Sequence record: KP869100
From: Escherichia typing phage 1
Length of the DNA: 64,000 bases
Direction: 5' to 3' (one strand)
Shown: one piece after another, positions 8,152 to 30,259 of the stretch
How positions within the stretch are numbered: the stretch's first letter is position 1
How the letters are laid out: the number at the start of each line of letters is the position of its first letter
Notes under the pieces: generated by a model
Told to the model about the DNA's origin: nothing
The model's database searches: none
What the model saw: the letters and a program-made list of their open reading frames with translations, nothing else
Made by a program: the position numbers and the translations under genes

Positions 8152-9768
8152 TCAACGTCTAAGCCCCTCATATGGGTTTCCTCTCACTAAATCTGTGTGA
8201 GCACCCATTGATGGTGGCTTGAATAATTTAACTTCGTTAAGACTGTTGAAAGCATCACTGGTAGCATCCACTTGGTCATCTTTAGTTTTACCATCACCAC
8301 AAAAGCCTTCAAGCTCTTGAAAGTAAGCTTCATTCCAACTACCTCTCAAGACTTTTACAAGTCCAGCTTCAGAAGCAGCAGAAAATCCCGCAAAGCGGGT
8401 AACTTTATCTTTATTTGTTGGTTTGGCTCTTGCACGATAACCTTTCTCGGCAAGTTTCCTGATGAGGGATGTTGCGTAGGATTTACCAGCAGCGCCTGGG
8501 TCTTGAGGGATAAAAATACCAGTTCGCTTACCGTCACTTTCAGCAGTCAAATTAATTTGTGTTTCGACTCCAGAGGGTCTATCTCTAAATCTTACTACAT
8601 CAATGATATAATAGCAACCGTCTTTTTTAGATTTACCCATCTTAACACCTGCTGTCCAGTCTGGATTAGGGTTAATCTCAGATGGTAAAGTTGCTGCTAA
8701 GTCCCATGCTCTAACATCAAATACATCTTCTGGTAGTGAATCAACAATTTCACACCATTGTCTTTGCCAATAGTTTGAACCTTCTGCACGAGCCTTCCAG
8801 TTACCGAAACGAAGTCTTGCAACGTTTACAGGGGTGTTGTTTTCCAACTTACCACGGTACTTAGGCTCTAAGAAGTCAAGGATTGGGTTATCATCAATCG
8901 TACCAGAGATAAAGGTGTATGTTTGAGGAATCTCAAGAGGGAACATTTCAAGAATCTTGTCTCTCTCCCAATCAGAAACCATCACACCATCGTTCATTAC
9001 ATACCAACGAATACGACCACACTTTTCAGGGTCTGGATAACCTTCTTCATCTAAGAATGGCTCTACCCAATCGTAAATAAAGTGGTCTCTGTCTGGGTTC
9101 ATAGAAATCTTCATGTATGAATCACCTTCAGCACCAGAACGTAGACGGGTTTGTAGGTATGAAATCTGTGAAGCAGAGAAGTGTGTACCTTCGTCAAAGT
9201 AAATAGCTGAGTATTCAATACCCTGATGACCTTCAGCGTGCTTTTCAAGTTCTAGGTAGGTAAACTTGATAGTTGCCCCAGAAGGGAATGTGATAGTCAT
9301 TTTCTGCTCGTGAGGAATCCCACCAAACTTACCAAATAGTTTCTTTGCAGCAGGCCATAAACCACCTTGTAGCTGTGTTGTATTTCGACGGAAATATACA
9401 GCATTATAGTTAGGGTCTTCAATAAATCTTAAAGAGTCCATTAACAATGCAGCAGTTTTACCAGCACCAGCAGCACCACCATAAAGAACCAAGTCAGCAT
9501 TAGTGTTTAAAAAGACCTCTTGAGAACCCGGCTGAGGGGCTACATAATTCTTATCAGTCATCAATTTAAAGATAAGGCGAACTTGGTCTGGTGTGTATCT
9601 TAATAAAGTCAGAATTTGAGTTGGAAGGAATTTAGAGGGGTCTTTACCGAATGATTTGATAATTTCTTTTACTTCATCAGAAAGCCCCAACTCTCCAGCT
9701 AGGACTTTCCTAACATCTTCCACTCGCTTCTGCTTAACAGCATTTAAGTCCATTAAGCACCTCCGCAA
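8152..9768 (-). CDS. terL: terminase large subunit
   Basis: Walker A-like LYGGAAGAGKTAAL near the N-terminus; 538 aa; first gene of the head operon. Confidence 0.75.
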   Translation of the reverse strand: MRRCLMDLNAVKQKRVEDVRKVLAGELGLSDEVKEIIKSFGKDPSKFLPTQILTLLRYTPDQVRLIFKLMTDKNYVAPQPGSQEVFLNTNADLVLYGGAAGAGKTAALLMDSLRFIEDPNYNAVYFRRNTTQLQGGLWPAAKKLFGKFGGIPHEQKMTITFPSGATIKFTYLELEKHAEGHQGIEYSAIYFDEGTHFSASQISYLQTRLRSGAEGDSYMKISMNPDRDHFIYDWVEPFLDEEGYPDPEKCGRIRWYVMNDGVMVSDWERDKILEMFPLEIPQTYTFISGTIDDNPILDFLEPKYRGKLENNTPVNVARLRFGNWKARAEGSNYWQRQWCEIVDSLPEDVFDVRAWDLAATLPSEINPNPDWTAGVKMGKSKKDGCYYIIDVVRFRDRPSGVETQINLTAESDGKRTGIFIPQDPGAAGKSYATSLIRKLAEKGYRARAKPTNKDKVTRFAGFSAASEAGLVKVLRGSWNEAYFQELEGFCGDGKTKDDQVDATSDAFNSLNEVKLFKPPSMGAHTDLVRGNPYEGLRR

Positions 9769-9774
9769 ATAGAA

Positions 9775-9975
9775 TTATTCAGAGTCTGTAGCAGTCTCTT
9801 CTTTCTTAACTTCGAACTTTGCATCAACAGCATCAAGAAGTGCATCCATAGATGCTTCTTTAATATCAATACCTGTTGCTACAGACAATCTGTCTGCAAT
9901 TGCCATGATAGTATTCTGCATAAATTCTAGCTTTTTATTAGCTTCATAAAGTTCTTTATAAACGGTCTCGCTCAT
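9775..9975 (-). CDS. hypothetical small protein (small terminase subunit not excluded)
   Basis: 66-aa ORF immediately upstream of terL. Confidence 0.3.
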   Translation of the reverse strand: MSETVYKELYEANKKLEFMQNTIMAIADRLSVATGIDIKEASMDALLDAVDAKFEVKKEETATDSE

Positions 9976-10197: not shown

Positions 10198-10273
10198 TGG
10201 AGAATCCGAAGGGACTCGAACCCTTATAAACCTGTTTTGCAGACAGGCACATAGCCGTTTCTGTCACGGATTC
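10198..10273 (-). tRNA. tRNA-Cys (anticodon GCA)
   Basis: minus-strand cloverleaf: 7-bp acceptor GAATCCG/CGGATTC, anticodon loop CUGCAAA, T-loop TTCGAGT, discriminator U, encoded CCA. Confidence 0.7.
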
Positions 10274-10277
10274 AAAT

Positions 10278-10370
10278 TGGAGGAAGATACCAGACTTGAA
10301 CTGGTACACCGATTTCTCAGCTACTGGCAGTTTAGCAAACTGCTCCCTTACCTTTTAGGGTTAATCTTCC
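10278..10370 (-). tRNA. tRNA-Ser (anticodon GCU), type II
   Basis: acceptor GGAAGAT/ATCTTCC, anticodon loop UUGCUAA, long variable arm, T-loop TTCAAGT, encoded CCA. Confidence 0.65.
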
Positions 10371-10372
10371 AT

Positions 10373-17785: not shown

Positions 17786-18000
17786 AAATCGCAGATATTA
17801 TAGATTTATATCAAACTGCAAAGAGTCATGGCTATATAACCTCAATTGGAAAGAATAGTCACTATGATGCTTTGACTGGAATGTATTTCAGGGCAATGGC
17901 TCAATCTAGTGAACAACACTTAATGGTTTCTTCCAGTGAGTTTACTTCGTTTCTCTATTGCAGCAAAATTATAAATCGCAGGAGAACTGAAAAATGCTAA
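17767..18000 (+). CDS. hypothetical protein
   Basis: 77-aa ORF. Confidence 0.3.
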   Translation: MCSSQLEIADIIDLYQTAKSHGYITSIGKNSHYDALTGMYFRAMAQSSEQHLMVSSSEFTSFLYCSKIINRRRTEKC

Positions 18001-18584
18001 CAGTAAGTTTTAATTACAATAGTGATGGCTCTGTATCAATTAATTCACCATATGCAAATGACCTACTTAAAGAGCTAGTCAATCAGTGTGATAGAGGTCT
18101 TCACTATGTTCAAAATTCTTTTAAACAGAAGACTATTGCTAATAACTTGATGCGTGTAACAGTAACGGCATCGAATCCAAATTATGACTTTGATAGTGAA
18201 AGTCCGTACTCATTAGTTGCGCTTGGAGAGAGCAGCCAATTCAAACTTGTTTGCCACGACTCAGAAACATTCCTTAAGGTCTTTTCCAACCTTATCCATA
18301 ATAATAAGTACAGCTACGTTGATGGTAGTGTAAATTTCTATCCAGCAAACTATACATGTTTGTTGGTTGATAATATGAGAAAAAGTAAGCAAGAGCCTAC
18401 GGAAATTTCATTTGATGTGAACTCTAGTCCAGACGCAGAAACAAGTAAGAACTTTGATATGAGTTACGCATTGTCACTTAGTAAGAAATCCGAGTTCATT
18501 GATTATGTCAATGGATTTGGTTTTAAGTTTGATGAGAGTATGAATCTTAAAAAACTTAAGAACCTACTTAAGACCAAAGCTTAA
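17994..18584 (+). CDS. hypothetical protein
   Basis: 196-aa ORF followed by hairpin GGGGCTGATGCCCC. Confidence 0.5.
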   Translation: MLTVSFNYNSDGSVSINSPYANDLLKELVNQCDRGLHYVQNSFKQKTIANNLMRVTVTASNPNYDFDSESPYSLVALGESSQFKLVCHDSETFLKVFSNLIHNNKYSYVDGSVNFYPANYTCLLVDNMRKSKQEPTEISFDVNSSPDAETSKNFDMSYALSLSKKSEFIDYVNGFGFKFDESMNLKKLKNLLKTKA

Positions 18585-18593
18585 GTGTGAATA

Positions 18594-18615
18594 GGGGCTG
18601 ATGCCCCTTTAACTA
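18594..18615 (+). terminator. candidate intrinsic terminator
   Basis: GGGGCTGATGCCCC hairpin followed by a T-rich tract. Confidence 0.35.
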
Positions 18616-18631
18616 TTTATAAGGATATTTA

Positions 18632-19003
18632 ATGAAAGCTAAGAGTGCAAAAGACTTTTATTGCTTCCTACAATCCTATATCAATTCCGTGCAAAATGGT
18701 GAAAGGTACAACCTTAATGATGTTATCCCAACACCTTTGACATGGAGACTCAGTAAATGGCCTGAAGAAGATATTACACCAACAATCGAACAATGCACCT
18801 ACAAACCCGAAATCAATATTCCAGACTCTGAGAATCTATTATATCCAATGTTCCATATTGTTGGTCTTGGAAGATTCCTTATGGATATCCAGTATATAAT
18901 TGGTAAAGGTTATAAGGTTAAAGGTATTGTTGTTGGTGATGTATCTCCGAATCACAAAGGTTATTTTAGGCTAAACGCACATTTAGAGGCTGAAAAGAAA
19001 TGA
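18632..19003 (+). CDS. hypothetical protein, paralog of the N-terminal domain of the next gene
   Basis: shares KxxSxKDFxxF...WPEEDI...MDIQY pattern with the N-terminus of the 19000-19881 product. Confidence 0.5.
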   Translation: MKAKSAKDFYCFLQSYINSVQNGERYNLNDVIPTPLTWRLSKWPEEDITPTIEQCTYKPEINIPDSENLLYPMFHIVGLGRFLMDIQYIIGKGYKVKGIVVGDVSPNHKGYFRLNAHLEAEKK

Positions 19004-19881
19004 TTAAAGCAAAGACTTACCCAGACTTCAAAGAGTTTGTGAAGGGCTTCATTGCAAACGTAAAGGCTGGTAAGAGGTATGATTTTAGAACATATCAAGA
19101 GGCTATTTTACCACTTACCTATAGCTCGTATTGGCCTGAAGCTGATATTGCAGAAGTTGAGAAGTTTGACTATAAACCAGACTATAAAGTCCCATTTAGT
19201 GATGAGTTGCTTTACAGTGTTGGTGCTCAAATGAGAACTTCTGACTTCTTCATGGACTTACAATATGCAATTATCAATGGTAAAGACGTTGATACAGTTT
19301 ATTGTGAATGGCTGGCAAGAGTTAAACCATTCTCAATGTTGAATGCTAAGTTGAAGGACGCTATCAAGCCACCATCAATCACTCAGCAACCAACCAATCA
19401 AACAGTAAATGAAGGTGGTACACTTACCCTAAGCGTTATTGCAACTAATGCCACTGGATATCAATGGAAAAAGGATGGTGAGGATATCACTAGCGCCACA
19501 TCTGCAACCTACACAAAACAGTCTGTAGAACCTTCTGATGCAGGTTCATACACTTGCGTTGTAACAGGTGCAGGTGGTTCTGTCACTTCTAGCCCTGCAA
19601 CGGTTACTGTTAACGCACTTCCGGTAATCACTCAACAGCCAACCAATCAAGAAATCAATGAAGGTGAGACCTTAACGCTGAATGTTGTGGCAACAGGTGC
19701 GACAGGTTACCAGTGGAAGAAAGGTGAGGAAGACATCCTTGATGCAACTACTGCAACTTACACCAAAGAAGGTGCGACCGCTGCTGATGCAGGAAGCTAC
19801 ACCTGTGTAGTTACTGGTGCAGGTGGCTCTGTAACATCCAATGCAGCAACAGTTACAGTTAACCCAGCAGGGGAGGCGTAA
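19000..19881 (+). CDS. protein with two tandem Ig-like repeats
   Basis: two about 80-aa repeats (ITQQPTNQ...GYQWKK...DAGSYTCVVTGAGGSVTS...ATVTVN) after a paralogous N-terminal domain. Confidence 0.55.
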   Translation: MIKAKTYPDFKEFVKGFIANVKAGKRYDFRTYQEAILPLTYSSYWPEADIAEVEKFDYKPDYKVPFSDELLYSVGAQMRTSDFFMDLQYAIINGKDVDTVYCEWLARVKPFSMLNAKLKDAIKPPSITQQPTNQTVNEGGTLTLSVIATNATGYQWKKDGEDITSATSATYTKQSVEPSDAGSYTCVVTGAGGSVTSSPATVTVNALPVITQQPTNQEINEGETLTLNVVATGATGYQWKKGEEDILDATTATYTKEGATAADAGSYTCVVTGAGGSVTSNAATVTVNPAGEA

Positions 19882-20345
19882 TGCAACTCTCAAGAAAAGG
19901 TTTAGATGCTATTAAGTTCTTCGAAGGTCTGGAGTTAGAGGCTTACGAAGATTCTGCCGGAATCCCAACAATCGGGTATGGGACAATCCGTATTGACGGA
20001 AAACCTGTTAAGATGGGTATGAAAATTACTGCTGAACAAGCTGAACAGTATCTTCTCGCGGATGTTGAGAAGTTTGTTGCAGCAGTGAACAAAGCTATCA
20101 AGGTTCCAACTACTCAGAATGAGTTCGATGCACTTGTAAGTGAAACATACAACATCGGTATCACAGCTATGCAGGATTCCACATTTATCAAGCGCCACAA
20201 TGCTGGTAATAAGGTAGGTTGTGCAGAAGCTATGCAGTGGTGGAACAAGGTTACAGTCAAAGGTAAGAAGGTCACTTCAAACGGTCTGAAAAACAGACGT
20301 AGAATGGAAGCTGACATTTATCTTGACAGTGTATACCCAAAGTAA
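19881..20345 (+). CDS. endolysin, GH24 (T4 lysozyme-like) family
   Basis: FEGLELEAYEDSAGIPTIGYGT catalytic motif typical of phage lysozymes; 154 aa. Confidence 0.8.
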   Translation: MQLSRKGLDAIKFFEGLELEAYEDSAGIPTIGYGTIRIDGKPVKMGMKITAEQAEQYLLADVEKFVAAVNKAIKVPTTQNEFDALVSETYNIGITAMQDSTFIKRHNAGNKVGCAEAMQWWNKVTVKGKKVTSNGLKNRRRMEADIYLDSVYPK

Positions 20346-20354
20346 TATCTTCAT

Positions 20355-20380
20355 AGGCTCCTTCGGGAGCCTTTTTTATT
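20355..20380 (+). terminator. intrinsic terminator
   Basis: GGCTCC-TTCG-GGAGCC hairpin followed by TTTTTT. Confidence 0.65.
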
Positions 20381-20396
20381 TTCTAAGGAGAAAGCT

Positions 20397-20795
20397 ATGA
20401 AACTTTGGGCTAGTGACTTTGGAACTTTTAAGTACACTCGTAATGGCTCGCTTGTACGCATTGTCGGGAACAATGTGGTTTCAAGAGGTGACAAGGTATA
20501 TACACGGTTTACTGTAGAGCTTGTTGAGCTGTCACCTATTGAGTCTGTGAACAATGGCCTGTTCAAGTTTGAGACTTACAATGTCAACGAACATGGACAA
20601 TTCAACCCTCTTGGTGAAAGTGGACTTGATATTATTTCAGAGCACCCATTGACAAAAGAGCAACTCGCAAGTTATTATAAAACTGTTCTGGAAAGGCAGT
20701 TAGCAACACATGAACAAGAAGCTAACTATCATTTACAACATTGCGAAGCTTTAAGAGCAAAAATAGAACAAGCAGAGAGAGGTTTTTATGAATAA
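20397..20795 (+). CDS. hypothetical protein
   Basis: 132-aa ORF with GGAG-type ribosome-binding site. Confidence 0.45.
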   Translation: MKLWASDFGTFKYTRNGSLVRIVGNNVVSRGDKVYTRFTVELVELSPIESVNNGLFKFETYNVNEHGQFNPLGESGLDIISEHPLTKEQLASYYKTVLERQLATHEQEANYHLQHCEALRAKIEQAERGFYE

Positions 20796-21177
20796 AGAGA
20801 TTCAAGTAAAAGTTGACACCTTTGGCCATGATGGTCGAGAAGATGCTGGACTTGCTGACGCAGTGATTTTTGAGTGTAATGGAAATATTAGTCTTCGCTT
20901 TACAGGCTCAGGTAGCACCCTTCGCAGAATGCGAGATGATGCAGATGGTTGCCCTGTATTTGGCTGGTATGACATGGAGTTTCCTCTTTACGCCATCCAT
21001 TATCCAGATGGTGGAGAAGACTGGACAACTCAATCAATCCGCGATGAGCTTAATGGCATTCCAGTTGAGCAAGAAGAGCAAGAGCCTGTTGAACTCACAT
21101 TCACTTTTATCAAAGAAGAGAAAGTTGGTGATTTGTCTGTAACTGAAGCAATTCAAGTCTCACAGGTTATTCGTTAA
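20788..21177 (+). CDS. hypothetical protein
   Basis: 129-aa ORF. Confidence 0.45.
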   Translation: MNKEIQVKVDTFGHDGREDAGLADAVIFECNGNISLRFTGSGSTLRRMRDDADGCPVFGWYDMEFPLYAIHYPDGGEDWTTQSIRDELNGIPVEQEEQEPVELTFTFIKEEKVGDLSVTEAIQVSQVIR

Positions 21178-21470
21178 TGAGTAAAGTACAGGTTGTTTTC
21201 CCTATTTGTGACTTCTCACTAGAGCGTGAACTTGACCTGTACGAAGAAATTACTGACGAAATTATCTGGTCTGTTGTAGAAGAGGCTATCAAGAAGCTGT
21301 ATGGTGGCCTCTTAAATCCATCAAGTAAGAAGTTAAGCACTAAGCAAGTAGCTGACCCATATGTTTCATACGATGCCTACAACAAGCCTTTTGAAAATAC
21401 CTGCTTTGACCTTATGGTAGGTAATAACAAAGTCAACTATTTCTTCGTCAGAGAGTTTAACGATGAGTAA
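21177..21470 (+). CDS. hypothetical protein
   Basis: 97-aa ORF. Confidence 0.4.
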   Translation: MSKVQVVFPICDFSLERELDLYEEITDEIIWSVVEEAIKKLYGGLLNPSSKKLSTKQVADPYVSYDAYNKPFENTCFDLMVGNNKVNYFFVREFNDE

Positions 21471-21807
21471 GCTCCATGTCACAGTTTACAAAAACTTCTC
21501 AGATATCAAAGAGTCTTTAACAAATAAGCTTGACTTACAACGTAAAAGACTCTTTTTAATGTATGACATAGACAACTACAACCATCCTAAAGAGTTTAAC
21601 TACAAAGATGGTACAAAGGTTGTTGAGTTTGAAGATTCTGTGACGGTGTATGTCAAGCATGACTTACCAGCAAAGTATATAGGGATGTTAGAGTACTACA
21701 TATTCAAACATACTGGTATGCGTGGTGAATCTGTTAAGATATCTTCTATAGAAGTTTTTGAGAAACCTAACACACAACTTAAAAAGTATTTAATGAGGAA
21801 ACTGTAA
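21463..21807 (+). CDS. hypothetical protein
   Basis: 114-aa ORF. Confidence 0.4.
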   Translation: MSKLHVTVYKNFSDIKESLTNKLDLQRKRLFLMYDIDNYNHPKEFNYKDGTKVVEFEDSVTVYVKHDLPAKYIGMLEYYIFKHTGMRGESVKISSIEVFEKPNTQLKKYLMRKL

Positions 21808-22388
21808 TGTCAGAAGAACATGAGCATATCCAACCAGAAGTTACATTAGTAAAACATTTCGGAAATGTAGAAGGCTGTGTAGCACTTTTTCAGACTAACA
21901 TCAATTCTCCAGTCAAACTGTGCAAATTGACGATAAACACTAACAACATCAGTGTATGCGTGAATGAAGAAGTACAATACTTCAAATTCAATGATAAAGA
22001 GGTTGATGCTGCACTACTGAAATACAGAGCAAATCTTGAAAAAGATATTGACCATAAAGAGGTTGTGAGTCTCTTTGCAGACCTACATAAGCTTCTTGAT
22101 AAGGTTGAAAAAAGAACATACTACATGAATAATGGCTCTATCATTACCACTATGATTTCACCATGTATCTCTGAGCCAATCTTCACAGATGATGGTGCTT
22201 ATTATATTGTAGCTTCGGCAGTGTCTGATTGGTGGTTAAAAAATAACGCCCTGAAAACAGTGATTGATGCTATCAGAGAACACATCCCTACATTTAGTCC
22301 GTGGAAGGGTAAAGGTGATGAATTTATCGCACTGTTGAGTGAAGAGAGTAACAAGCGCAGTGCATTACTGCCTAAAAAATACTCTTGA
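21807..22388 (+). CDS. hypothetical protein
   Basis: 193-aa ORF. Confidence 0.45.
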   Translation: MSEEHEHIQPEVTLVKHFGNVEGCVALFQTNINSPVKLCKLTINTNNISVCVNEEVQYFKFNDKEVDAALLKYRANLEKDIDHKEVVSLFADLHKLLDKVEKRTYYMNNGSIITTMISPCISEPIFTDDGAYYIVASAVSDWWLKNNALKTVIDAIREHIPTFSPWKGKGDEFIALLSEESNKRSALLPKKYS

Positions 22389-22460
22389 CCGAGTATACAA
22401 TATTGATTATGATGGGAGCTATCGAGAGGTAGTTCCCTTTTTAGTTTCTGGAGAATAGAT

Positions 22461-23006
22461 ATGGCTAAAGTGAAAGAACACGATAAAATTATTTTGTATG
22501 TTAAACAGAATCCTTCAAAGAGTGTTGAGGCTGTTGTAACACACATCTCACACAATGGAACAGTTTATTTTCAACCACTGAAGAACTTAGACTTTGACAC
22601 AACACCAAACCACACATTTAGTACTTCTGCAAGACTGTGTGCTGGAACTGTATACTCGACTGCTGAGATTGAGTCCTTATCTTTCACAGGTGCTTACAAA
22701 AACTTTATAGGGATTGCTTTAAAGGACTCTGAGGAATCTTTTAAATTCTTCATGGAGACCAATAAAGGCTGTTATGCACATGTTATGCCAGTCTATAAGA
22801 AAGTTGACACAGAACTTACAAGCAAGTGCGAAGAGATTAGCAGCGACCTGAAGGAGCGTAAAACAGCTATTCAGAATGCTATTTACATCATTGAGAGGGA
22901 CCACTTAGAAGTTCTTTTCAGAGATATGCTAAAAGCAGGGTTTACCCCAAACGAAATTACAAGAGAAACACAACGCCAGTTCAGAAACGCTATGGTGAAA
23001 GAATGA
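22461..23006 (+). CDS. hypothetical protein
   Basis: 181-aa ORF. Confidence 0.45.
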   Translation: MAKVKEHDKIILYVKQNPSKSVEAVVTHISHNGTVYFQPLKNLDFDTTPNHTFSTSARLCAGTVYSTAEIESLSFTGAYKNFIGIALKDSEESFKFFMETNKGCYAHVMPVYKKVDTELTSKCEEISSDLKERKTAIQNAIYIIERDHLEVLFRDMLKAGFTPNEITRETQRQFRNAMVKE

Positions 23007-23221
23007 AAAAACTAACTACAGTTGAAGATTACTACAAACTGTCCTTGTTAGAACAGTATCGCAGAAGCCAGAATATCAGAAAATGCTATGGTAAACACGC
23101 TGAAGGTGACTTTTACCATTGTTACGATGCAGATTTAAAAGGTGTAACACCTAGAGGAAAAGTTCTGCAAAGATTTGTTGACCTTGAATGGAACAAGAGA
23201 TTGAGAGGGGTTGGAAAATGA
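23003..23221 (+). CDS. hypothetical protein
   Basis: 72-aa ORF. Confidence 0.35.
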   Translation: MKKLTTVEDYYKLSLLEQYRRSQNIRKCYGKHAEGDFYHCYDADLKGVTPRGKVLQRFVDLEWNKRLRGVGK

Positions 23222-23721
23222 TTTACGAAGAAAGATATAAGATAGATTACCAGAAGACTGGTCATCATGTCTCTTTAAGAGTAACCAAACCAAATGGAGA
23301 TACCGGTATCATAGCACATTTTGGTGGTGATTATTGGTATGGTACAGGTTGCTTTGAAGGCTACACTCAAGAATACTTGAAAGCTTTCTACAGAGACTTT
23401 ACAAACGACTACAACAGGGTTGTTGACGAAAAGAATAAGTGCATTAAGCATGAATACCATGCCAGAGGTTGTCTGAATATTGTTATGATACTGGCTTTCT
23501 TCTTAGCAATGTTACTGGCAGTATCAGCAATTAGCTGCATAGCTCAAGATTTGACAATTACACAGATTACTGCAAAGCTACATGATATCTGGTACTTGTA
23601 TACTGTTCCTTTAGCTGGTATTATCATCTCACTAATAAGATTCAGAGTTCATAAGAAACGACTTAAGGATTCCGAGGTTAAACTTGAAGAGGTAAGTAAA
23701 GAATGCAACCTACAATTATAG
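23218..23721 (+). CDS. hypothetical membrane protein
   Basis: ORF 23188-23721 trimmed to the ATG at 23218; two hydrophobic helices in the C-terminal half. Confidence 0.4.
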   Translation: MIYEERYKIDYQKTGHHVSLRVTKPNGDTGIIAHFGGDYWYGTGCFEGYTQEYLKAFYRDFTNDYNRVVDEKNKCIKHEYHARGCLNIVMILAFFLAMLLAVSAISCIAQDLTITQITAKLHDIWYLYTVPLAGIIISLIRFRVHKKRLKDSEVKLEEVSKECNLQL

Positions 23722-23797
23722 CTGTATGTGTTCGTTTTGCAATCGCTGAAATGATTAACAAGGCAATCTTAAAAGATGCCTATGGAGAGACTAAGTA

Positions 23798-24022
23798 ATG
23801 ATTAAGACGCCTGTACCAATTTTTGGATTTCCTTCTATAGAAGAGTTCAAAGTTTACCTTGACAAAAACTTCTACAACGAGCAACCTGTTACTTTGCTGA
23901 AGAGTGACTTATCAGAGCTTCTTGATATGGTTATCAAGGCAACTTCTGAGAAGGAACCTGAACAGAAAGCTGAGAAGAAGACTAGTAAGAAATCCGATAA
24001 GAAGACTGAAAAGTCTGAGTAG
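23798..24022 (+). CDS. hypothetical protein with lysine-rich tail
   Basis: 74-aa ORF. Confidence 0.35.
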   Translation: MIKTPVPIFGFPSIEEFKVYLDKNFYNEQPVTLLKSDLSELLDMVIKATSEKEPEQKAEKKTSKKSDKKTEKSE

Positions 24023-24074
24023 TAGCTTGAGGGGTTACTTGATAGCCCCTTTGTAGAACTTAGAAGGTAGCGAA

Positions 24075-24497
24075 ATGAAAGAGCTTATTGGTAAAAGATT
24101 GACAGTTTACTGCTCTAAAACAAAGAAACCACTTACTTCTGTGAAGGTCTTTGATGTTGACACCACTGGTGTAGAGTACCCAATCCAATGCACAATAATT
24201 ACTCCATTCCATGCAGATGATATGGATTTTAAAGAGTGTGAAGTGATATCTTTTAATGCTGATGGGTATTGGAGAGGTAAGTTAAACAAGCAATCAGAAG
24301 ATTTTGATATGCAAATCATTATCAATGAAGGCTATATCGGTGTAAAAGATATCCTCGTAGAAGCCTATGAAGAAGGTATAATTGATATTGTGCATGATGT
24401 TGAAAAAGCTTTAAAGCTTGTTATGCCGCATTTAGAATCTGGAAAGCTGACTTTAGAGATGCTTAATAGGATTATTCGGAGAGCTTATGAAAATTAA
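24075..24497 (+). CDS. hypothetical protein
   Basis: 140-aa ORF. Confidence 0.45.
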   Translation: MKELIGKRLTVYCSKTKKPLTSVKVFDVDTTGVEYPIQCTIITPFHADDMDFKECEVISFNADGYWRGKLNKQSEDFDMQIIINEGYIGVKDILVEAYEEGIIDIVHDVEKALKLVMPHLESGKLTLEMLNRIIRRAYEN

Positions 24498-24951
24498 AGA
24501 AGTAGTGCAAAGAGCAATGCTTGATAATTCTACTAAAGATGAGATGTACACAGAAATTTGTGATAAGTTGAACTGCTCAAGACATGCTGCTAAGGTTCTT
24601 GTACATTGTTTTATTTGGGAATGCTCAGAAGCCTATATGAAACACGTAGCTTTTGAGAGTTCTCATTTACTCGGTGATGTAAAAATAGGTGTAGCACTAA
24701 AAGAGCCTGAGATGAAAACAGTACCTAAGGTCGGTAATGTGTATAAACTAAAAAATTTTATTACAGGCGAGATTGTTGCAGAAGGTGAAGTGCAACAGGT
24801 TTATCATGATGGTAAATATCTGTTTAAGATATTCGAGTATGATAGTCGTTACAGACACTTATGTGGTATTACATTTTTAGTTTCAGAGGATGACCTCATC
24901 AAGAACAATAGTAATAAATTCGCAGTACCAGAATATCAAGTTTTACGATAA
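24487..24951 (+). CDS. hypothetical protein
   Basis: 154-aa ORF. Confidence 0.45.
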   Translation: MKIKEVVQRAMLDNSTKDEMYTEICDKLNCSRHAAKVLVHCFIWECSEAYMKHVAFESSHLLGDVKIGVALKEPEMKTVPKVGNVYKLKNFITGEIVAEGEVQQVYHDGKYLFKIFEYDSRYRHLCGITFLVSEDDLIKNNSNKFAVPEYQVLR

Positions 24952-24964
24952 TGGTGTGATAGAT

Positions 24965-25513
24965 ATGGAAAAAGATAACTTAAAAGATGTTGAAGGTAAC
25001 TATCTAGTCCTTGACTGGAAGGATGTTCGGGAAGCACTCTCCGAAGAAAATCTTGACTGGTTCGAACAAATTATCTTTGCAGTACGGCATAACCGAGAAG
25101 TTGAAAATGGTAAAGAGCCACTTGAAGGAATCTTTGTAGATAGGTCTTATCCATTCTATGAAGACACTTTGCAGAAAGTTAAGATGTACTTTAGACAGAA
25201 GAACCGTAAAGTGGTCACTATGGTATCTCTTGGTGGACAGAATATGTCTGTGATGGAAGATATTAATCCTAAGAGACCGAGTAAAGGTATCTGTATAAAA
25301 ATCACAGGACATGAAGAGTATATCTCAGTGGATGACTTTAGTGCATTCTGTAATGGCTCTTGTGTCTTTAATGGTTTTCACTATGATATCCGAGTGTACC
25401 CAATCAAGGGAGATGATATCATGATGCAGGTATTCGATAATAACAACGGCTTTACTCATTTTTATCAGACAACCAAGTCATCACTAAAAACAGTTCTGGA
25501 AACACTGATTTAA
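24965..25513 (+). CDS. hypothetical protein
   Basis: ORF 24890-25513 trimmed to the ATG at 24965. Confidence 0.4.
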   Translation: MEKDNLKDVEGNYLVLDWKDVREALSEENLDWFEQIIFAVRHNREVENGKEPLEGIFVDRSYPFYEDTLQKVKMYFRQKNRKVVTMVSLGGQNMSVMEDINPKRPSKGICIKITGHEEYISVDDFSAFCNGSCVFNGFHYDIRVYPIKGDDIMMQVFDNNNGFTHFYQTTKSSLKTVLETLI

Positions 25514-25523
25514 AATATCTTAA

Positions 25524-25552
25524 GAGCCTCCTTAATTGGGGGCTTTTTTTAA
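25524..25552 (+). terminator. intrinsic terminator closing the plus-strand block
   Basis: AGCCTCC-ttaatt-GGGGGCT hairpin followed by TTTTTTT. Confidence 0.6.
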
Positions 25553-25560
25553 TTTTTATA

Positions 25561-27100
25561 AAAATTTTATCGGTTGTTCCAACCTCTGGGTCACCATCAT
25601 ATGTGAATAAAATATCTATCCTTCTTAACAACCTTCTTAATCTTACTCTCTATATATAGTTATATAGTACTATATAGTGTCTTAGTAACTATCTAGTGGT
25701 CTTAATAGCCCCTCTGTATAACCCTTCTAAATAGCCCTCTAAACACTCTTCTAACAAGCCTTCTTAACAACCTATACAATCACCTTAACCATCTCTCTAT
25801 ACGCTCTTAGAAGCCTCTATACACCCCTTAATCTCTATGTCAGCTATGATACTCTCTATAGGTGTTCACTAGGCACTACTAAGCCTCTATATAGACTGTT
25901 TTAACAAACTTAACAGGAATATCTTTACAGACCTTATCTCACAAGGTCTAACACGGTACTAACAAGGTATCTTATAAGCCTGTTTCTACCTGTATTTTTA
26001 AAAGACTGTATAAGTAATTATTCAGAATTTTAAAATTTTTATAAAATAAGACTGTCAAGTCATTTTTTAGGGTCTTTGAAGGAACTCAAAAATATCTGTA
26101 GAAGATGTATATCTGCTTGGTAGCCCTTAACAGCTCCCTTACAAGTACTTTGCAAAATTTTAAAATATCCTTAACAACATCTTAACAACTCTCTCAAGCT
26201 CTTAACATCTCTTCAAAGGTCTTAACAGTTTCTTAACAGAACTAACAAGAACTTAACAGTTTTCTAACAAGCTTTGGTAGGGCTTTACAGAATCTTAACA
26301 GATAACTAACAAGAGCTAACAAGTTAATTTTAAAGAGTTATTTTGTTAAGATAATTAACAAGTTCCTAACAAGTGTTTAATCTTTTTAACAAGCTATTAA
26401 CATGGTCACTATCTCTTTTCTTATCGTTCCCTTTCTCTCTTAGTGATTCTCTAAACATACCTTTTAAAAGCTCTCTATAGCTCCTTGTAAGCTCTTTTAA
26501 GCCTCTTCCTAGTATCTACCCCTCAACTGTATGGATAGCTCTTTATAGGGCTTTACAGGAGCTTTTAAGGCTATGTCAAAGGTTCTTACAAGGCTTTTAC
26601 GTGGTCTTAACAGAGATTTAACAAGGGGCTAACAAGTTGCTAACAAGTGCCTTAAAAGCATAACTATGTAGGGATTGTTAAGAAATTGTTAAGGGGGCTA
26701 GCATTTACGTAACTTTTAAGCTACTTCAAAGTAACTTTATAGCCCCTATAACATACTTTTAAGACACTAACAAGCCCTTTTTAGTAGTTCACAAGATAGC
26801 TAACGAGATGATAAAGCTCACACCCTTATAAGATTCTTTTAAGGCTCTAGAAAGCTCTATAAAGGGCTTTTTAGAGTGGGTTAATATGATTGCTTAAGTT
26901 AGGTTGATAAGGCTGTTATAGGGCTTTATAGAGCGTTTAAATGGTTGCCCTTCCCTTTCGGGTTATGGGCTTATATTTAAGTTGATTTGATAAGGGGTTA
27001 TAGAGTAAGCTATAGAGTTATTGCTTTTAAGGTACGGGATAGATTCTAGGAAGGAAAGGAAAGGGATTGTATAGAGTCTCTTTATAGACGTAAAAAAGCC
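25561..27100. repeat. 1.5-kb ORF-free, G-depleted region packed with short direct repeats
   Basis: no ORF of 60 aa or more on either strand; repeated words CTTAACA, CTAACAAG, CTCTATA, CTTTATAGGGC and CTTTTAAG; flanked by convergent operon ends. Confidence 0.6.
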
Positions 27101-27145
27101 CCTATGAGAAGGAGCTTTTCAGGTATCTGGGGCTATTTAGCCCCG
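27092..27145 (-). terminator. candidate terminator at the 3' end of the minus-strand early array
   Basis: GGGGCTATTTAGCCCC hairpin and a second GC stem followed on the minus strand by TTTTTT. Confidence 0.35.
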
Positions 27146-27154
27146 CTGCGTCGA

Positions 27155-27403
27155 TTAGTTGTAACCTTGTTTGCTGTAGTACAGAGAGACAATCAAGTCA
27201 CCCCAATAATGGTAGTGAGATTCCTCGTTTATGGCTTCTTTTACGGCATCTTTCCAGAAGTCATCAGTAGGGTTATAATCTGGTATCACCTGCTGAATCA
27301 GCATTTTGATAAGGTCAAAGGTGTTATCTGTTCCACCGATATCGAATTTTGCATCAAGTTGGTGGCAGCCATAAGCATTAACAGTTACGCGGATAGTTGA
27401 CAT
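27155..27403 (-). CDS. hypothetical small early protein
   Basis: 82-aa ORF preceded by a type A intergenic repeat. Confidence 0.5.
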   Translation of the reverse strand: MSTIRVTVNAYGCHQLDAKFDIGGTDNTFDLIKMLIQQVIPDYNPTDDFWKDAVKEAINEESHYHYWGDLIVSLYYSKQGYN

Positions 27404-27471
27404 AATTTAGAATCTCCAGTTTAGGACTTTATTTAGTGGGGAAGGTCATTCCCTCCCCGTTGTTTAGTAAT
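27404..27471 (-). repeat. type A intergenic repeat
   Basis: GGGGAGGGAATGACCTTCCCC hairpin then conserved AAACTGGAGATTCTAAATTATG leader (minus strand). Confidence 0.6.
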
Positions 27472-27735
27472 TTACTGCATATTGGCGTAGGTTGCAAGCC
27501 TTTTTTCGTTGTATTTTGTCAGAATTTCACAAGATAGAACATCGTACATTGTAACCGCTTTGCTTTTGTCGAGGTCAAAAAAGCCAAATGCTTTACCATC
27601 TTTGAATCCGACAACTTCGTAAGATTCTTTAATGATTTCACCATTGAACAAATCACTTTCGATACGGTGAAACAACGCTACGTCTTCTTTGTCAGTTGCA
27701 ATCTGCAATAGTGTGGTTAATTCTACGTGTTCCAT
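27472..27735 (-). CDS. hypothetical small early protein
   Basis: ORF 27472-27840 trimmed to the ATG at 27735 that directly follows the repeat leader. Confidence 0.5.
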   Translation of the reverse strand: MEHVELTTLLQIATDKEDVALFHRIESDLFNGEIIKESYEVVGFKDGKAFGFFDLDKSKAVTMYDVLSCEILTKYNEKRLATYANMQ

Positions 27736-27802
27736 TTTTGAATCTCCTAGTTTAAGGACTTTACTTAGTGGGAAGGTTAATCCCTCCCCGTTGATTGACA
27801 AT
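27736..27802 (-). repeat. type A intergenic repeat
   Basis: same hairpin and leader family. Confidence 0.6.
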
Positions 27803-28333
27803 TTACAGACTTTTGATTGTCTCGTCAATATCTTTTTCAATATCTTTTAAAGTTTTTTCTAAGTTCTTGATATTGAAGGATAAGCCTTCACCGAGAGTCT
27901 TAGAATAACCGCTAGGACGTAAATCATAAAGGCCAATTTGTTCTACATTGGAGAGGTTGACCATTTCACCGCTTACATCATAAGCTATTGATACGGTGTT
28001 TTCAGGGGCTTTATAGAACTTGTTAAGATTCTTGATAGAACGTTCATAAGCCATTTTATAACCATTTAAAAGGTCTTTAACGTGGTTGCGAACGTTTTTA
28101 CACTCATCTAAGTAAATACCTAAGAATAGCGGTAACAGTTCTGCTACAGCTTGCATAAAGTGAGATACTACAACAGTAGAAACATTACGACGATGTATAT
28201 AATAAGCCCCGTTTTCTGATTTAGTGATAGTTGCAAAGTGTACACCGTTGCAACGAAATTCGAAGGTATCTTTAACGGGTTTAGTCATAACGTTAGATGA
28301 GCGAATGTAGTTGATAGCTTGAAACTTGTTCAT
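27803..28333 (-). CDS. hypothetical early protein
   Basis: 176-aa ORF preceded by a type A repeat. Confidence 0.5.
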   Translation of the reverse strand: MNKFQAINYIRSSNVMTKPVKDTFEFRCNGVHFATITKSENGAYYIHRRNVSTVVVSHFMQAVAELLPLFLGIYLDECKNVRNHVKDLLNGYKMAYERSIKNLNKFYKAPENTVSIAYDVSGEMVNLSNVEQIGLYDLRPSGYSKTLGEGLSFNIKNLEKTLKDIEKDIDETIKSL

Positions 28334-28400
28334 TTTGAATCTCCTAGTTTAAGGACTTTACTTAGTGGGGAAGGTCATTCCCTCCCCGTTGTTTAGTACT
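28334..28400 (-). repeat. type A intergenic repeat
   Basis: GGGGAAGGTCATTCCCTCCCC core on the plus strand. Confidence 0.6.
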
Positions 28401-28896: not shown

Positions 28897-28981
28897 TTTA
28901 GAATCTCCAGTTTAGGATTGAGTGGTAAAGCTCTTTATCTGGGGCTTACTATACAGACTAATAAGCCCCATGTAAAGTACT
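28897..28981 (-). repeat. type B intergenic repeat
   Basis: perfect inverted repeat GGGGCTTA...TAAGCCCC plus conserved TTGTAAAGTACTTTA and the shared leader. Confidence 0.6.
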
Positions 28982-29230
28982 TTAAGCGTCTTTATATTCT
29001 ATCTCTGTGCACTCACCTTTTACTAGCTCAAAGGTCCAAATAATTCGTTTATACTCAATCACTACTACAGTAACAAGGTCAGTCCTCTTCTCATTGGTTT
29101 TAAAGTCTATTGTGTGGGTATACTCATAACTAGTCTTATCCTTAATTTCCCCGTAGCGTCTACACTCTTTATAGACTTCATCCATTAAGCCATTGCTAAC
29201 CATGTTTTTTAGTTGAGTTTTAGTATACAT
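28982..29230 (-). CDS. hypothetical small early protein
   Basis: 82-aa ORF preceded by a type A repeat. Confidence 0.5.
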   Translation of the reverse strand: MYTKTQLKNMVSNGLMDEVYKECRRYGEIKDKTSYEYTHTIDFKTNEKRTDLVTVVVIEYKRIIWTFELVKGECTEIEYKDA

Positions 29231-29323
29231 TTTTTGGAATCTCCTAGTTTAAGGACTTTACTTAGTGGGGAAGGTCATTCCCTCCCCGTTGATTGATAAT
29301 TTACAGACTTTTATCAGGCTTGT
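29231..29323 (-). repeat. type A intergenic repeat
   Basis: same hairpin and leader family. Confidence 0.6.
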
Positions 29324-29623: not shown

Positions 29624-30166
29624 TTAGAAAAAGACCTTTAAATCACTCTCTACAATGTTTTCTGTCAGTGTATCCATGATGTCACAAAAAACCTGAATAC
29701 TGTCGGATTGTTGGATACTTTTAGCAAGTAGCTCCAATGTTTCATCAAGATAATTTAAATTTGGGTTATCCAGTGAAGGGAGACAAAAAGGTGAATACAT
29801 AGCGTTGAACTCTGTTGTATAGACCTTTTTAATCCAATTTACATCAAAGTACTCTGTAAAGCTTGCTATATTTGACATGTTATCACAAGAATAATCATCA
29901 TTTAGCTCATCCTCTGGAATGTCAAGTTCTAAGATAACAATATTTTGAGTTTTCATCTGAAAAGCTGCCGTGATAGTGGCATTTCCTAGAGCTTGCTGGA
30001 TACCTTCCGATGCTATCTCTTCCTCATCATCACCATAGAGTTTATTTTCTGGGTACACGTAAAAATTGCCGTCCATATCCGAACAATTCCATACACCTGA
30101 TGGTTTATCACCGTTATTAATCAGGTTAATAAAGTTTTCTTGAGTAGTACCGTGAAAGCATTTCAT
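29624..30166 (-). CDS. hypothetical early protein with N-terminal H-G-T motif
   Basis: 180-aa acidic ORF starting MKCFHGTT; preceded by a type B repeat. Confidence 0.5.
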   Translation of the reverse strand: MKCFHGTTQENFINLINNGDKPSGVWNCSDMDGNFYVYPENKLYGDDEEEIASEGIQQALGNATITAAFQMKTQNIVILELDIPEDELNDDYSCDNMSNIASFTEYFDVNWIKKVYTTEFNAMYSPFCLPSLDNPNLNYLDETLELLAKSIQQSDSIQVFCDIMDTLTENIVESDLKVFF

Positions 30167-30259
30167 TTTGAATCTCCTAGTTTAAGGATTTAGTGGTAAA
30201 GCTCTTTATCTGGGGCTTACTTTATCGAACTATAAGCCCCTTGTAAAGTACTTTATCAG
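30167..30259 (-). repeat. type B intergenic repeat
   Basis: GGGGCTTA...TAAGCCCC inverted repeat plus shared leader. Confidence 0.6.

What the first reader, a model, noticed from the sequence alone, without database searches (positions are those of the whole stretch)
25561..27100. 1.5-kb ORF-free, G-depleted repeat region between convergent operons
No ORF of 60 aa or more on either strand in a genome that is otherwise over 90 percent coding. The plus strand is strikingly poor in G over long stretches and is built from short reiterated words (CTTAACA/CTAACAAG about 20 times in 26160-26400; CTCTATA/CTTTATAGGGC; CTTTTAAG). It lies exactly where the rightward block and the 36-kb leftward block converge. 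Candidate roles are a replication origin with iterons, a packaging or terminal-repeat region, or a locus for non-coding RNA.
Basis: seen in the sequence. Interest (0 to 1): 0.65.

Follow-up and report, generated by a model that had tools for sequence, protein, structure and literature searches.

The report
Phage genome ends and terminal repeat
The gene-free repeat region is where this Felix O1-like phage's linear DNA begins and ends: a roughly 580-bp terminal repeat with non-coding flanks, all built from short words spaced one DNA turn apart, a known kind of feature but an unusually large and well-conserved example.

Summary
Window 25514-27154 has no ORF of 60 aa or more. It lies between two convergent, terminator-ended operons. 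It is built from CTNNNNAG-type octamers (CTAACAAG, CTTAACAG, CTTTTAAG, CTTTATAG and similar): 64 copies against about 6 in shuffles, with a 10-11 bp period.

The window is a Felixounavirus. Six independently sequenced relatives have records that begin and end inside the homologous region, with exact direct terminal repeats (DTRs) of 439-651 bp. The five Felixounavirus/Mooglevirus records share identical boundaries. The Kolesnikvirus record has homologous ones. Three papers report short DTRs for Felix O1-like phages from read-based terminus calling with PhageTerm, one of them 613 bp.

Mapped onto the window, the DTR is 26119-26698. Its boundaries read TGTATATCTGCTT|GGTAGCCC and GGGGGC|TAGCATTTACGTAA. 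So the region is the concatemer junction: sub-terminal array, single collapsed DTR copy, sub-terminal array.

Between genera the non-coding DNA is 76-82% identical, against 64-65% for the adjacent genes. The octamers are better conserved than the linkers between them. Indels come in 11-nt units. This points to arrayed protein-binding sites, most likely for packaging. That role is inferred.

I found no support for a replication origin or a non-coding RNA. The closest analogue is the phage T7 junction, whose terminal repeat is flanked by short-repeat arrays (SRR and SRL). Interest is moderate to low.

The parts
25522..25557 (+). Intrinsic terminator that ends the rightward operon, forming the left limit of the non-coding region.
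   Evidence: Ten-pair hairpin followed by a T-run. The same site is annotated as a rho-independent terminator in wV8.
25554..25569 (.). AT-rich palindrome TTTTATAAAAATTTTA, copy 1.
   Evidence: Inverted-repeat pair I13, 16 nt and 100% complementary with 26031-26046. Conserved across genera. Function unknown.
25570..26118 (.). Sub-terminal unique non-coding array. It is G-poor on + and lies next to one DTR boundary.
   Evidence: Sixteen CTNNNNAG octamers, 7 TAACA words on + and none on -, G 11%. It is 76-82% identical to Suspvirus and Mooglevirus.
26031..26046 (.). AT-rich palindrome, copy 2, inside a 60-bp AT-rich block about 75 bp outside the DTR.
   Evidence: It is the local peak of predicted bending.
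26106..26118 (-). Conserved 13-mer AAGCAGATATACA that abuts the DTR boundary on the outside. It is a candidate terminase recognition or cleavage element.
   Evidence: Identical in every relative aligned across this boundary, from four genera, and directly adjacent to the record-defined terminus. It is the only exact copy in the 64-kb window.
26119..26698 (.). Direct terminal repeat, 580 bp. This assembly carries a single collapsed copy; the virion should carry one at each end.
   Evidence: It aligns end to end with the exact terminal duplications of HP1 (570 bp), CRP22 (579), I14.1 (581), SeKF_63 (613) and NBEco005 (651). All five start at GCCCCCTTAACA and end at GTTAAGGGCTACC.
26160..26400 (+). 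Densest one-orientation array of CTTAACAG/CTAACAAG words inside the DTR.
   Evidence: Fourteen TAACA words, spaced mostly 9-11 nt or about double that.
26675..26694 (.). Inverted pair TTGTTAAGAAATTGTTAAGG, 4 bp inside the other DTR boundary, complementary to 26169-26188.
   Evidence: Inverted repeat I5, 20 nt and 90% complementary. It accounts for the end-to-end pairing seen when the DTR is folded.
26699..26716 (+). Conserved flank TAGCATTTACGTAACTTT immediately outside the second DTR boundary.
   Evidence: The five Felixounavirus/Mooglevirus records read ...GTTACGTAAA(TG/CA)CTA|GCCCCC on the opposite strand. Kolesnikvirus reads TTACGCTATGGTTA|GCCAC.
26699..27090 (.). Sub-terminal unique non-coding array on the other side. 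It is G-rich on + and dominated by CTTTTAAG, CTTTATAG and GGGCTTTATAGAG words.
   Evidence: Eighteen CTNNNNAG octamers, G 22%. It is 78-82% identical between genera.
27091..27154 (-). Terminator-like hairpins that end the leftward operon: GCTCC...GGGGC followed by a T-run, and GGGGCTAAATAGCCCC.
   Evidence: Read directly from the sequence. The homologous position is annotated as a terminator in Michonne. The consensus scan did not call it.

Best explanation
The region is the physical end region of a Felix O1-like (Felixounavirus) genome, seen in an assembly that collapsed the two terminal copies into one.

Window 26119-26698 is the short direct terminal repeat (DTR). Windows 25570-26118 and 26699-27090 are the unique sub-terminal sequences that adjoin the two ends of the virion DNA. 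In replicating concatemers the order is ...genes - array - one DTR copy - array - genes...

Inferred mechanism, following the T7-type model. Terminase recognises sequence-defined sites at the two DTR boundaries: ...TGTATATCTGCTT^GGTAGCCC on the top strand and ...CGTAAATGCTA^GCCCCC on the bottom strand. It cuts, and the DTR is duplicated by fill-in or strand-displacement synthesis, so each packaged genome carries a copy at both ends.

The roughly 1.6 kb of 10-11-bp-phased octamers (core TGTTAAG/CTTGTTAG, with CTTTTAAG and CTATAAAG variants) most likely forms a one-face-of-the-helix array of binding sites. A packaging or end-handling protein, possibly an unrecognised small terminase, would assemble on the junction there.

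What is shown: the location and boundaries of the DTR, the periodic word architecture, and its conservation. What is inferred: the cutting chemistry and what binds the arrays. The confidence of 0.85 applies to the identification as the DTR and concatemer junction. The packaging-platform role of the arrays taken alone is about 0.4.
For: 1. Identity. The region is 90-92% identical to wV8, ECML-1 and other Felixounavirus records. It is present in 255 records by megablast and 272 by blastn.

2. Termini. HP1 (annotated repeat_region 1-570 and 88766-89335), CRP22, I14.1, SeKF_63 and NBEco005 carry exact duplications of 570-651 bp at their two record ends, with identical first and last bases. Hafnia phage SPARTY (Kolesnikvirus) has a 439-bp one. 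Other records also break at this point, for example ECOH1 and ECP2307.

3. Literature. A 613-bp T7-like DTR was called by PhageTerm for the FelixO1-like phage Ro111lw (PMC6454146). DTRs were reported for Felixounavirus isolates (PMC11737134), for Kolesnikvirus (PMC11984208) and for HP1 (PMC9120918).

4. Boundaries are set by sequence, not distance. DTR length changes with internal insertions (570 to 651 bp) while the boundaries stay fixed. After reverse-complementing SPARTY, both of its boundaries align with the Felix-type ones...CCACT|AAGCAGATATACA and TTACGCTATGGTTA|GCCAC. The 13-mer is unique in the window.

5. Arrays. There are 64 CTNNNNAG octamers against 5.8 +/- 2.4 in shuffles. The 11-nt periodicity is present in all nine Ounavirinae regions tested, from four genera. 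TGTTAA is among the two most frequent hexamers in each of the four genera tested.

6. Selection. The non-coding parts are 76-82% identical between genera, against 64-65% for the adjacent genes. Octamer positions score 0.80 against 0.67 for linkers. That difference vanishes when the frame is shifted 2-8 nt and returns at 10 nt. Strain-to-strain indels are 11 or 22 nt.

7. Analogue. The T7 concatemer junction shows CCTAAAG/CATAAAG arrays around and inside its terminal repeat, with a 12-13 nt period.
Against: No sequencing reads or virion DNA of this particular phage were available. The termini are transferred by homology, although both boundaries match to the base. The exact ends in the relatives' records rest on read-pile-up software or on the depositors' judgement; none is known to have been mapped biochemically.

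Nothing here shows what binds the arrays. No small terminase was identified: the 66-aa ORF upstream of the large terminase subunit TerL matches only a family of unknown function. TerL itself carries only the generic Terminase_6N/6C domains.

Barcode insertions at most T7 genome-end loci were tolerated (bioRxiv 10.1101/2024.10.10.617714), so analogous arrays need not be essential.

The shared TGCTW^G at both cut sites rests on two sites in each of two clades and could be chance.
Confidence: 0.85

Rival explanations
1. The region is, or also contains, the replication origin. The phased words would be iterons for a phage initiator, and the AT-rich palindromes would be the unwinding element.
For: Iteron-like reiterated words at helical spacing. 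Two conserved AT-rich palindromes and a 60-bp AT block at 25990-26050. Strong conservation of non-coding DNA. From my own knowledge, not tested here: T5 has an ORF-free, repeat-rich region proposed as its origin, and T7 has secondary origins near its ends.
Against: About 60 strict octamers, with further degenerate units, spread over 1.6 kb is far beyond known iteron origins. There is only one 1-mismatch DnaA box. No initiator-like gene is nearby; the flanking genes match only families of unknown function. GC skew tracks transcription and shows no origin-type inflection here. The terminal-repeat identity already accounts for the location and the conservation.
Confidence: 0.1
2. The arrays are binding sites for an end-handling or nucleoid-type protein not involved in packaging. 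Candidates are end protection against RecBCD, DTR-DTR synapsis for concatemer formation, or a DNA-entry pause signal like the one proposed in the T5 terminal repeat.
For: The same architecture and conservation evidence as the main explanation. The arrays cover the DTR itself as well as its flanks, so they sit at both virion ends. Unit-sized indels suggest frequent out-of-register pairing or recombination.
Against: No candidate protein has been identified. Sequence alone cannot separate this from the packaging role. No two-step injection is known for Felix O1-like phages (my own knowledge).
Confidence: 0.2
3. The periodic words are structural DNA, intrinsically curved or anisotropically flexible, rather than sequence-specific binding sites.
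For: The period of 10-11 bp is close to the helical repeat. The octamer centres are rich in TA, TT and AA steps.
Against: A dinucleotide wedge-model calculation gives a net bend in the region equal to the genome average: 40 against 37 degrees per 105 bp, with only 5-6% of positions above the genome's 95th percentile (the parameters were recalled from memory). Specific asymmetric words such as TGTTAAG are conserved across genera and kept in one orientation, which a purely structural role does not require.
Confidence: 0.07
4. The region encodes one or more non-coding RNAs.
For: It is a long, conserved, ORF-free stretch. The DTR folds slightly better than its shuffles (z -2.1 and -1.7).
Against: No Rfam match apart from a sub-threshold hit on the operon terminator. 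No excess of promoter-like sites: 11 found against 11.5 expected over 24500-28000. Conservation follows an 11-nt word phase and not a helix pattern. The folding signal comes from inverted word copies at the DTR ends. The region is bracketed by the terminators of both operons.
Confidence: 0.03

Closest known systems
Phage T7/T3 concatemer junction: a 160-bp direct terminal repeat flanked by the short-repeat arrays SRL and SRR (Dunn and Studier 1983, from my own knowledge; the sequence was inspected)
   Same: A non-permuted short DTR with fixed ends. Non-coding DNA on both sides and inside the repeat is built from 7-8-nt words (T7: CCTAAAG, CATAAAG, CTTAAAG) recurring about once per helical turn. 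PhageTerm classifies the Felix O1-like DTRs as T7-like (PMC6454146).
   Different: There is no sequence homology. The period is 12-13 nt in T7 against 10-11 nt here. The arrays are about 170 bp each in T7 and about 1.6 kb in total here. T7 has promoters (A0, phiOL, phiOR) in the junction, whereas here the junction lies between convergent terminators. The phage is a myovirus with a Terminase_6-type large subunit.
Short DTR termini already reported for Felix O1-like phages (Ro111lw 613 bp, PMC6454146; HP1, PMC9120918; I14.1, PMC11737134; Kolesnikvirus Fifi106/318, PMC11984208)
   Same: This is the same element. The window's 26119-26698 is the ortholog, with identical boundary sequences.
   Different: In the passages I searched, those reports give only the existence or length of the repeat. 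I found no description of the phased octamer architecture, the conserved boundary motifs or the sub-terminal arrays. The searches of the Felix O1 and wV8 genome papers returned no discussion of the region.
Iteron centromeres such as plasmid R1 parC (ten 11-bp repeats bound by ParR) and small-terminase pac sites with repeated boxes (SPP1, lambda cosB). This comparison rests on my own knowledge.
   Same: Short words repeated at helical spacing, so that a protein oligomer can coat or wrap one face of the DNA.
   Different: No partition genes or recognised small terminase lie next to the arrays. The number of units is roughly 5-10 times larger. The words are heterogeneous (a CTNNNNAG class) rather than a single iteron.
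Phage T5 ORF-free repeat regions: the proposed origin, and the proposed injection-stop signal inside the long terminal repeat. This comparison rests on my own knowledge.
   Same: A kilobase-scale, ORF-free, repeat-dense region in a DTR phage of enterobacteria, associated with the genome ends.
   Different: T5 has a 10-kb coding terminal repeat and two-step DNA transfer. No such biology is known for Felix O1-like phages, and no sequence comparison was made here.

Membership tests
Short direct terminal repeat (T7-type, non-permuted) genome end / concatemer junction | The same sequence is present at both ends of the virion DNA. | tested here: met
   Exact terminal duplications of 570, 579, 581, 613, 651 and 439 bp in six related records. 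All are homologous to window 26119-26698. This was shown in relatives; this phage's own reads were not available.
Short direct terminal repeat (T7-type, non-permuted) genome end / concatemer junction | Fixed, sequence-defined end positions, with no circular permutation. | tested here: met
   Five independent records share identical first and last bases. The Kolesnikvirus boundaries align to the same positions. Boundaries stay constant while the repeat length varies. PhageTerm calls are reported in PMC6454146, PMC11737134 and PMC11984208.
Short direct terminal repeat (T7-type, non-permuted) genome end / concatemer junction | Read-start pile-ups and a two-fold coverage step in this phage's own sequencing data. 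| not testable with these tools
   No read data are available for the window.
Short direct terminal repeat (T7-type, non-permuted) genome end / concatemer junction | The large terminase subunit belongs to a DTR-generating clade. | not tested
   TerL (8152-9768, -) has Terminase_6N/6C domains and no PDB relative by sequence. No phylogeny was made. PMC11984208 assigns FelixO1-like phages to the short-DTR class partly on TerL homology.
T7 SRL/SRR-type sub-terminal short-repeat arrays | Arrays of 7-8-nt words about one helical turn apart, flanking the terminal repeat. | tested here: met
   CTNNNNAG octamers number 16, 27 and 18 in the left flank, the DTR and the right flank. Periodicity is 10-11 nt here and 12-13 nt in the T7 junction.
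T7 SRL/SRR-type sub-terminal short-repeat arrays | Sequence homology to the T7/T3 arrays. | tested here: not met
   The words and the period differ: 3 CTNNNNAG in the T7 junction against 2.4 in shuffles. All 272 blastn hits but one are to phages of Enterobacterales, nearly all of them Ounavirinae.
Iteron-type replication origin | A DnaA-box cluster or an adjacent initiator gene, together with an AT-rich unwinding element. | tested here: not met
   One 1-mismatch DnaA box. The flanking ORFs match only families of unknown function. AT-rich palindromes are present, but no other origin feature was found.
Curated non-coding RNA family (Rfam 15) | A covariance-model match at or near the gathering score. 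| tested here: not met
   The only hit is Phe_leader at 27.9 bits against a gathering score of 55, and it lies on the operon terminator.
Partition centromere (parC/parS-type repeat array) | Adjacent genes for a partition NTPase and a centromere-binding protein. | tested here: not met
   Ten flanking ORFs scanned against PHROGs gave no partition-related family. The phage is a virulent myovirus with no plasmid stage known (my own knowledge).

The most novel reading that the evidence does not exclude
The 1.6-kb junction is a dedicated nucleoprotein scaffold. More than a hundred helically phased TGTTAAG-class sites would be coated by a still-unrecognised phage protein, perhaps the 66-aa product encoded directly upstream of TerL. 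That protein would wrap the concatemer junction and present the two inverted TGCTW^G boundary sites to terminase for staggered nicking. This would be a pac/cos recognition system of unusual size. Because the T7 junction has analogous arrays, it could also explain the long-unexplained T7 SRL and SRR repeats.
Probability: 0.2. Interest if true: 0.6.

Novelty: new member of a known kind. Interest (0 to 1): 0.35.

Why it matters
Practical value. The result fixes where this phage's DNA really starts and ends: 26119 and 26698, with the 580 bp between them duplicated in the virion. That is the correct way to open and annotate Felixounavirus genomes. Most of the records inspected here are opened elsewhere and leave the region blank or labelled only 'repeat_region'. 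It matters for engineering and for therapeutic-phage quality control, because insertions here could affect packaging.

Biological value. It shows that an entire subfamily (four genera) keeps an unusually long array of helically phased words around a short terminal repeat, better conserved than the neighbouring genes. The boundary motifs are conserved, which gives concrete, testable candidates for terminase recognition in a myovirus that makes short DTRs. The parallel with the T7 arrays suggests a general and still unexplained requirement at such junctions.

Tried and rejected
- Rfam scan of 25000-27600 at permissive E-value: only a sub-threshold hit on the terminator.
- RNA folding of both strands of the DTR: z -2.1 and -1.7. 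The signal is explained by inverted word copies and is not persuasive.
- Promoter scan: no excess over shuffles.
- DnaA-box search: one 1-mismatch site.
- Intrinsic curvature by a wedge model: the region is no more curved than the genome average (parameters recalled from memory).
- Search for a unique dyad-symmetry centre at the cut sites: many pseudo-centres arise from the palindromic CT....AG frame, and none is singled out at 26119 or 26698.
- Degraded or frameshifted gene: rejected. There is no 3-nt periodicity, and the region is essentially ORF-free in all relatives inspected.
- Small terminase identification: the 66-aa ORF upstream of TerL matches only a PHROG family of unknown function, with no Pfam or PDB match.
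- Bas63 (a Felixounavirus) knockout-library paper: it reports no data for this intergenic region.
- Felix O1 and wV8 genome papers: term searches returned no discussion of the region.
- First SPARTY alignment: misleading, because that record is in the opposite orientation. It was redone after reverse-complementing.

Full report
**What the window is.** The finding region and its flanks are 90-92% identical to Escherichia phages ECML-1 and wV8 and to many other Felixounavirus records. By megablast 255 phage records hold it, 193 of them over at least 80% of its length. The window carries 26 tRNA genes, and also TerL, portal, protease and major capsid genes, rIIA, NAMPT, ribonucleotide reductases and a primase/helicase. 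That gene set fits a Felix O1-like myovirus.

**Checking the observation.** No ORF of 60 aa or more lies between the + ORF ending at 25513 and the - ORF ending at 27155. The internal ORFs are 30-35 aa, and a 59-aa ORF straddles the left edge. The rightward block (17994-25513) and the leftward block (27155 to beyond 63000) converge here. Each ends in a terminator-type hairpin (annotated in wV8 and Michonne).

The reiterated words are real and far beyond chance:
- CTAACAAG: 10 of its 11 +-strand copies in the window lie here.
- TAACA: 29 on + against 4 on -.
- CTNNNNAG, the general class (CTAACAAG, CTTAACAG, CTTTTAAG, CTTTATAG, CTTTACAG and so on): 64 copies against 5.8 +/- 2.4 in shuffles.
- Successive octamers are 10-12 nt apart in 28 of 61 intervals and 20-23 nt apart in 11 more.
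- Self-similarity peaks at lags 11, 21-22 and 31-32, unlike coding DNA.
- The three strongest periodicity scores in the whole 64-kb window lie in 25700-26750.

Two corrections apply. G-depletion holds only for about 25600-26500, and the strand bias reverses to the right. The stretch 26160-26400 has 14 TAACA words, not about 20.

**What it is.** The decisive clue came from how related GenBank records are opened. Several begin or end inside the homologous region. [quoted passage not shown]

I compared both ends of six records:

| Record | Exact terminal duplication |
|---|---|
| HP1 | 570 bp |
| CRP22 | 579 bp |
| I14.1 | 581 bp |
| SeKF_63 | 613 bp |
| NBEco005 | 651 bp |
| Hafnia phage SPARTY (Kolesnikvirus) | 439 bp |

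The five Felixounavirus/Mooglevirus records all start at GCCCCCTTAACA. At the internal copy that sequence is preceded by ...GTTACGTAAATGCTA (ACACTA in HP1). All five end at GTTAAGGGCTACC, which is followed by AAGCAGATATACA. These records come from different sources, including China, the Philippines and Canada.

Published read-based analyses agree. PhageTerm gave a 613-bp T7-like short DTR for the FelixO1-like phage Ro111lw (PMC6454146). DTRs were also reported for Felixounavirus isolates that include I14.1 (PMC11737134), and short DTRs for Kolesnikvirus phages (PMC11984208).

Mapped on the window, the DTR is 26119-26698 (580 bp). The + strand reads TGTATATCTGCTT|GGTAGCCC at the left boundary and AAGGGGGC|TAGCATTTACGTAAC at the right boundary. 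The window carries one copy, as expected for an assembly that collapses terminal repeats. So the finding region is the concatemer junction: sub-terminal array (25570-26118), DTR, sub-terminal array (26699-27090).

**The boundaries are sequence-defined and old.** DTR length varies from 570 to 651 bp because of internal insertions, yet the boundaries do not move. The SPARTY record is deposited in the opposite orientation. After reverse-complementing, both its boundaries line up with the Felix-type ones...GCGACCACT|AAGCAGATATACA, and TTACGCTATGGTTA|GCCACTTTTACA against TTACGTAAATGCTA|GCCCCCTTAACA. The 13-mer AAGCAGATATACA is identical in every relative aligned across that boundary, from Felixounavirus, Mooglevirus, Suspvirus and Kolesnikvirus, and occurs exactly once in the window.

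Read into the repeat, both boundaries show TGCT(T/A)^G. That is the arrangement needed if one enzyme nicks opposite strands 580 bp apart, leaving 5' overhangs that a polymerase fills in, as in the classical T7 model. With so few independent sites, this is only a suggestion.

**The arrays are under selection.**
- The 11-nt periodicity and the CTNNNNAG excess are present in all nine Ounavirinae regions tested, including the distant phiEa21-4. TGTTAA is among the two most frequent hexamers in all four genera.
- Against Suspvirus and Mooglevirus, the three non-coding parts are 76-82% identical. The adjacent genes are 64-65% identical or cannot be aligned.
- Within the arrays, octamer positions are conserved at 0.80 and the 3-nt linkers at 0.67. 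The difference disappears when the frame is shifted by 2-8 nt and returns at 10 nt.
- Strain differences include clean 11-nt and 22-nt indels such as TTAACATTTTC and CTTTTAAGGCA, which indicates unit-wise slippage or out-of-register recombination.

A wedge-model calculation does not predict unusual static curvature. Together with the one-orientation use of asymmetric words, this favours arrayed sequence-specific protein binding over purely structural DNA.

**How it most likely works.** Shown: this is the genome terminus with a short DTR, and it carries conserved boundary motifs and conserved phased words. Inferred: during packaging, terminase recognises the junction, cuts at the two boundary motifs, and the DTR is duplicated by DNA synthesis, so that each virion DNA carries it at both ends. 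The arrays would give a packaging or end-handling protein a long, one-faced binding platform. What binds them is unknown. No small terminase is recognisable. The 66-aa ORF immediately upstream of TerL is a candidate, but it matches only a family of unknown function.

**Rivals.**
- Iteron origin (confidence about 0.1): not excluded, but unsupported. There is no DnaA-box cluster, no initiator-like neighbour and no origin-type skew signal.
- A non-packaging end function, such as end protection, synapsis or an entry pause (about 0.2): cannot be separated from the packaging role by sequence.
- Structural DNA (about 0.07) and non-coding RNA (about 0.03): disfavoured.

**Comparison with what is known.** The closest analogue is the T7 concatemer junction, where CCTAAAG-type words flank and invade the 160-bp terminal repeat with a 12-13 nt period. 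There is no sequence homology. The Ounavirinae arrays are about five times longer in total, have an 11-nt period, and sit between convergent terminators rather than among promoters.

That Felix O1-like phages have roughly 0.6-kb DTRs is already published. In the papers I could search, I did not find the phased-word architecture, the sub-terminal arrays or the conserved boundary motifs described. The searches of the Felix O1 and wV8 genome papers returned no discussion of the region.

**Verdict.** This is a new, unusually large and well-conserved member of a known kind of feature. Interest is moderate to low (0.35). It would rise if the arrays prove to be a dedicated nucleoprotein scaffold for terminase.

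Noticed in passing
Relatives only: L002 (wV8), L009/L010 (SeKF_63), L006 (CRP22), L018 (SUSP2), L022 (IME338, three copies), L011/L012 (NBEco005). See the alignments.: A 22-nt palindromic insert, AATTGGTATTGTTACCAATCCC (hairpin ATTGGTA-n4-TACCAAT), sits at different positions of the homologous junction region in different phages. NBEco005 has a longer variant. It is absent from this window. It looks like a tiny insertional or mobile hairpin element.
   Followed up: partly
window 27408-27475, 27741-27810, 28336-28400, 29236-29310; also 28900-28985 and 30166-30250: Each small leftward gene next to the junction is preceded by one of two repeated cassettes made of a ribosome-binding site, a leader and a GC hairpin. 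The second type is the 57-bp direct repeat reported for Felix O1 (PMC3185647; DR_2/3/5 in wV8). Its words (CTTTACA, CTGTAAAG, GAGCTTTAC) resemble the junction-array words.
   Followed up: no
window 25554-25569 and 26031-26046: Two copies of the AT palindrome TTTTATAAAAATTTTA bracket the left sub-terminal array. They are perfectly complementary and conserved across genera. Their function is unknown.
   Followed up: no
window 9775-9975 (-): A 66-aa ORF lies directly upstream of the large terminase gene (8152-9768). It matches only PHROG 4397 (unknown function) and has no Pfam or PDB match. It is a possible unrecognised small terminase.
   Followed up: partly
relatives near both operon terminators (alignment columns about 150-260 and 2150-2200): A second variable insert of the type GATTCGATAGAATCTATC appears in CRP22, fjerdesal, HP1, SUSP1/2, Sf19, IME338 and Michonne, next to the terminator hairpins. 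It is absent from the window.
   Followed up: no
PP892526.1 (L007/L008): The GenBank taxonomy line of phage vB_EcoM_I14.1 says Tequintavirus (T5-like). Its 89-kb genome and its terminal region are Felixounavirus. The accessions were probably swapped, or the taxonomy mislabelled, at deposition.
   Followed up: no
window 10198-15340 (-): A cluster of 26 tRNA genes. It is slightly larger than the 22-23 reported for Felix O1 and wV8 (PMC3185647, PMC2674420).
   Followed up: no
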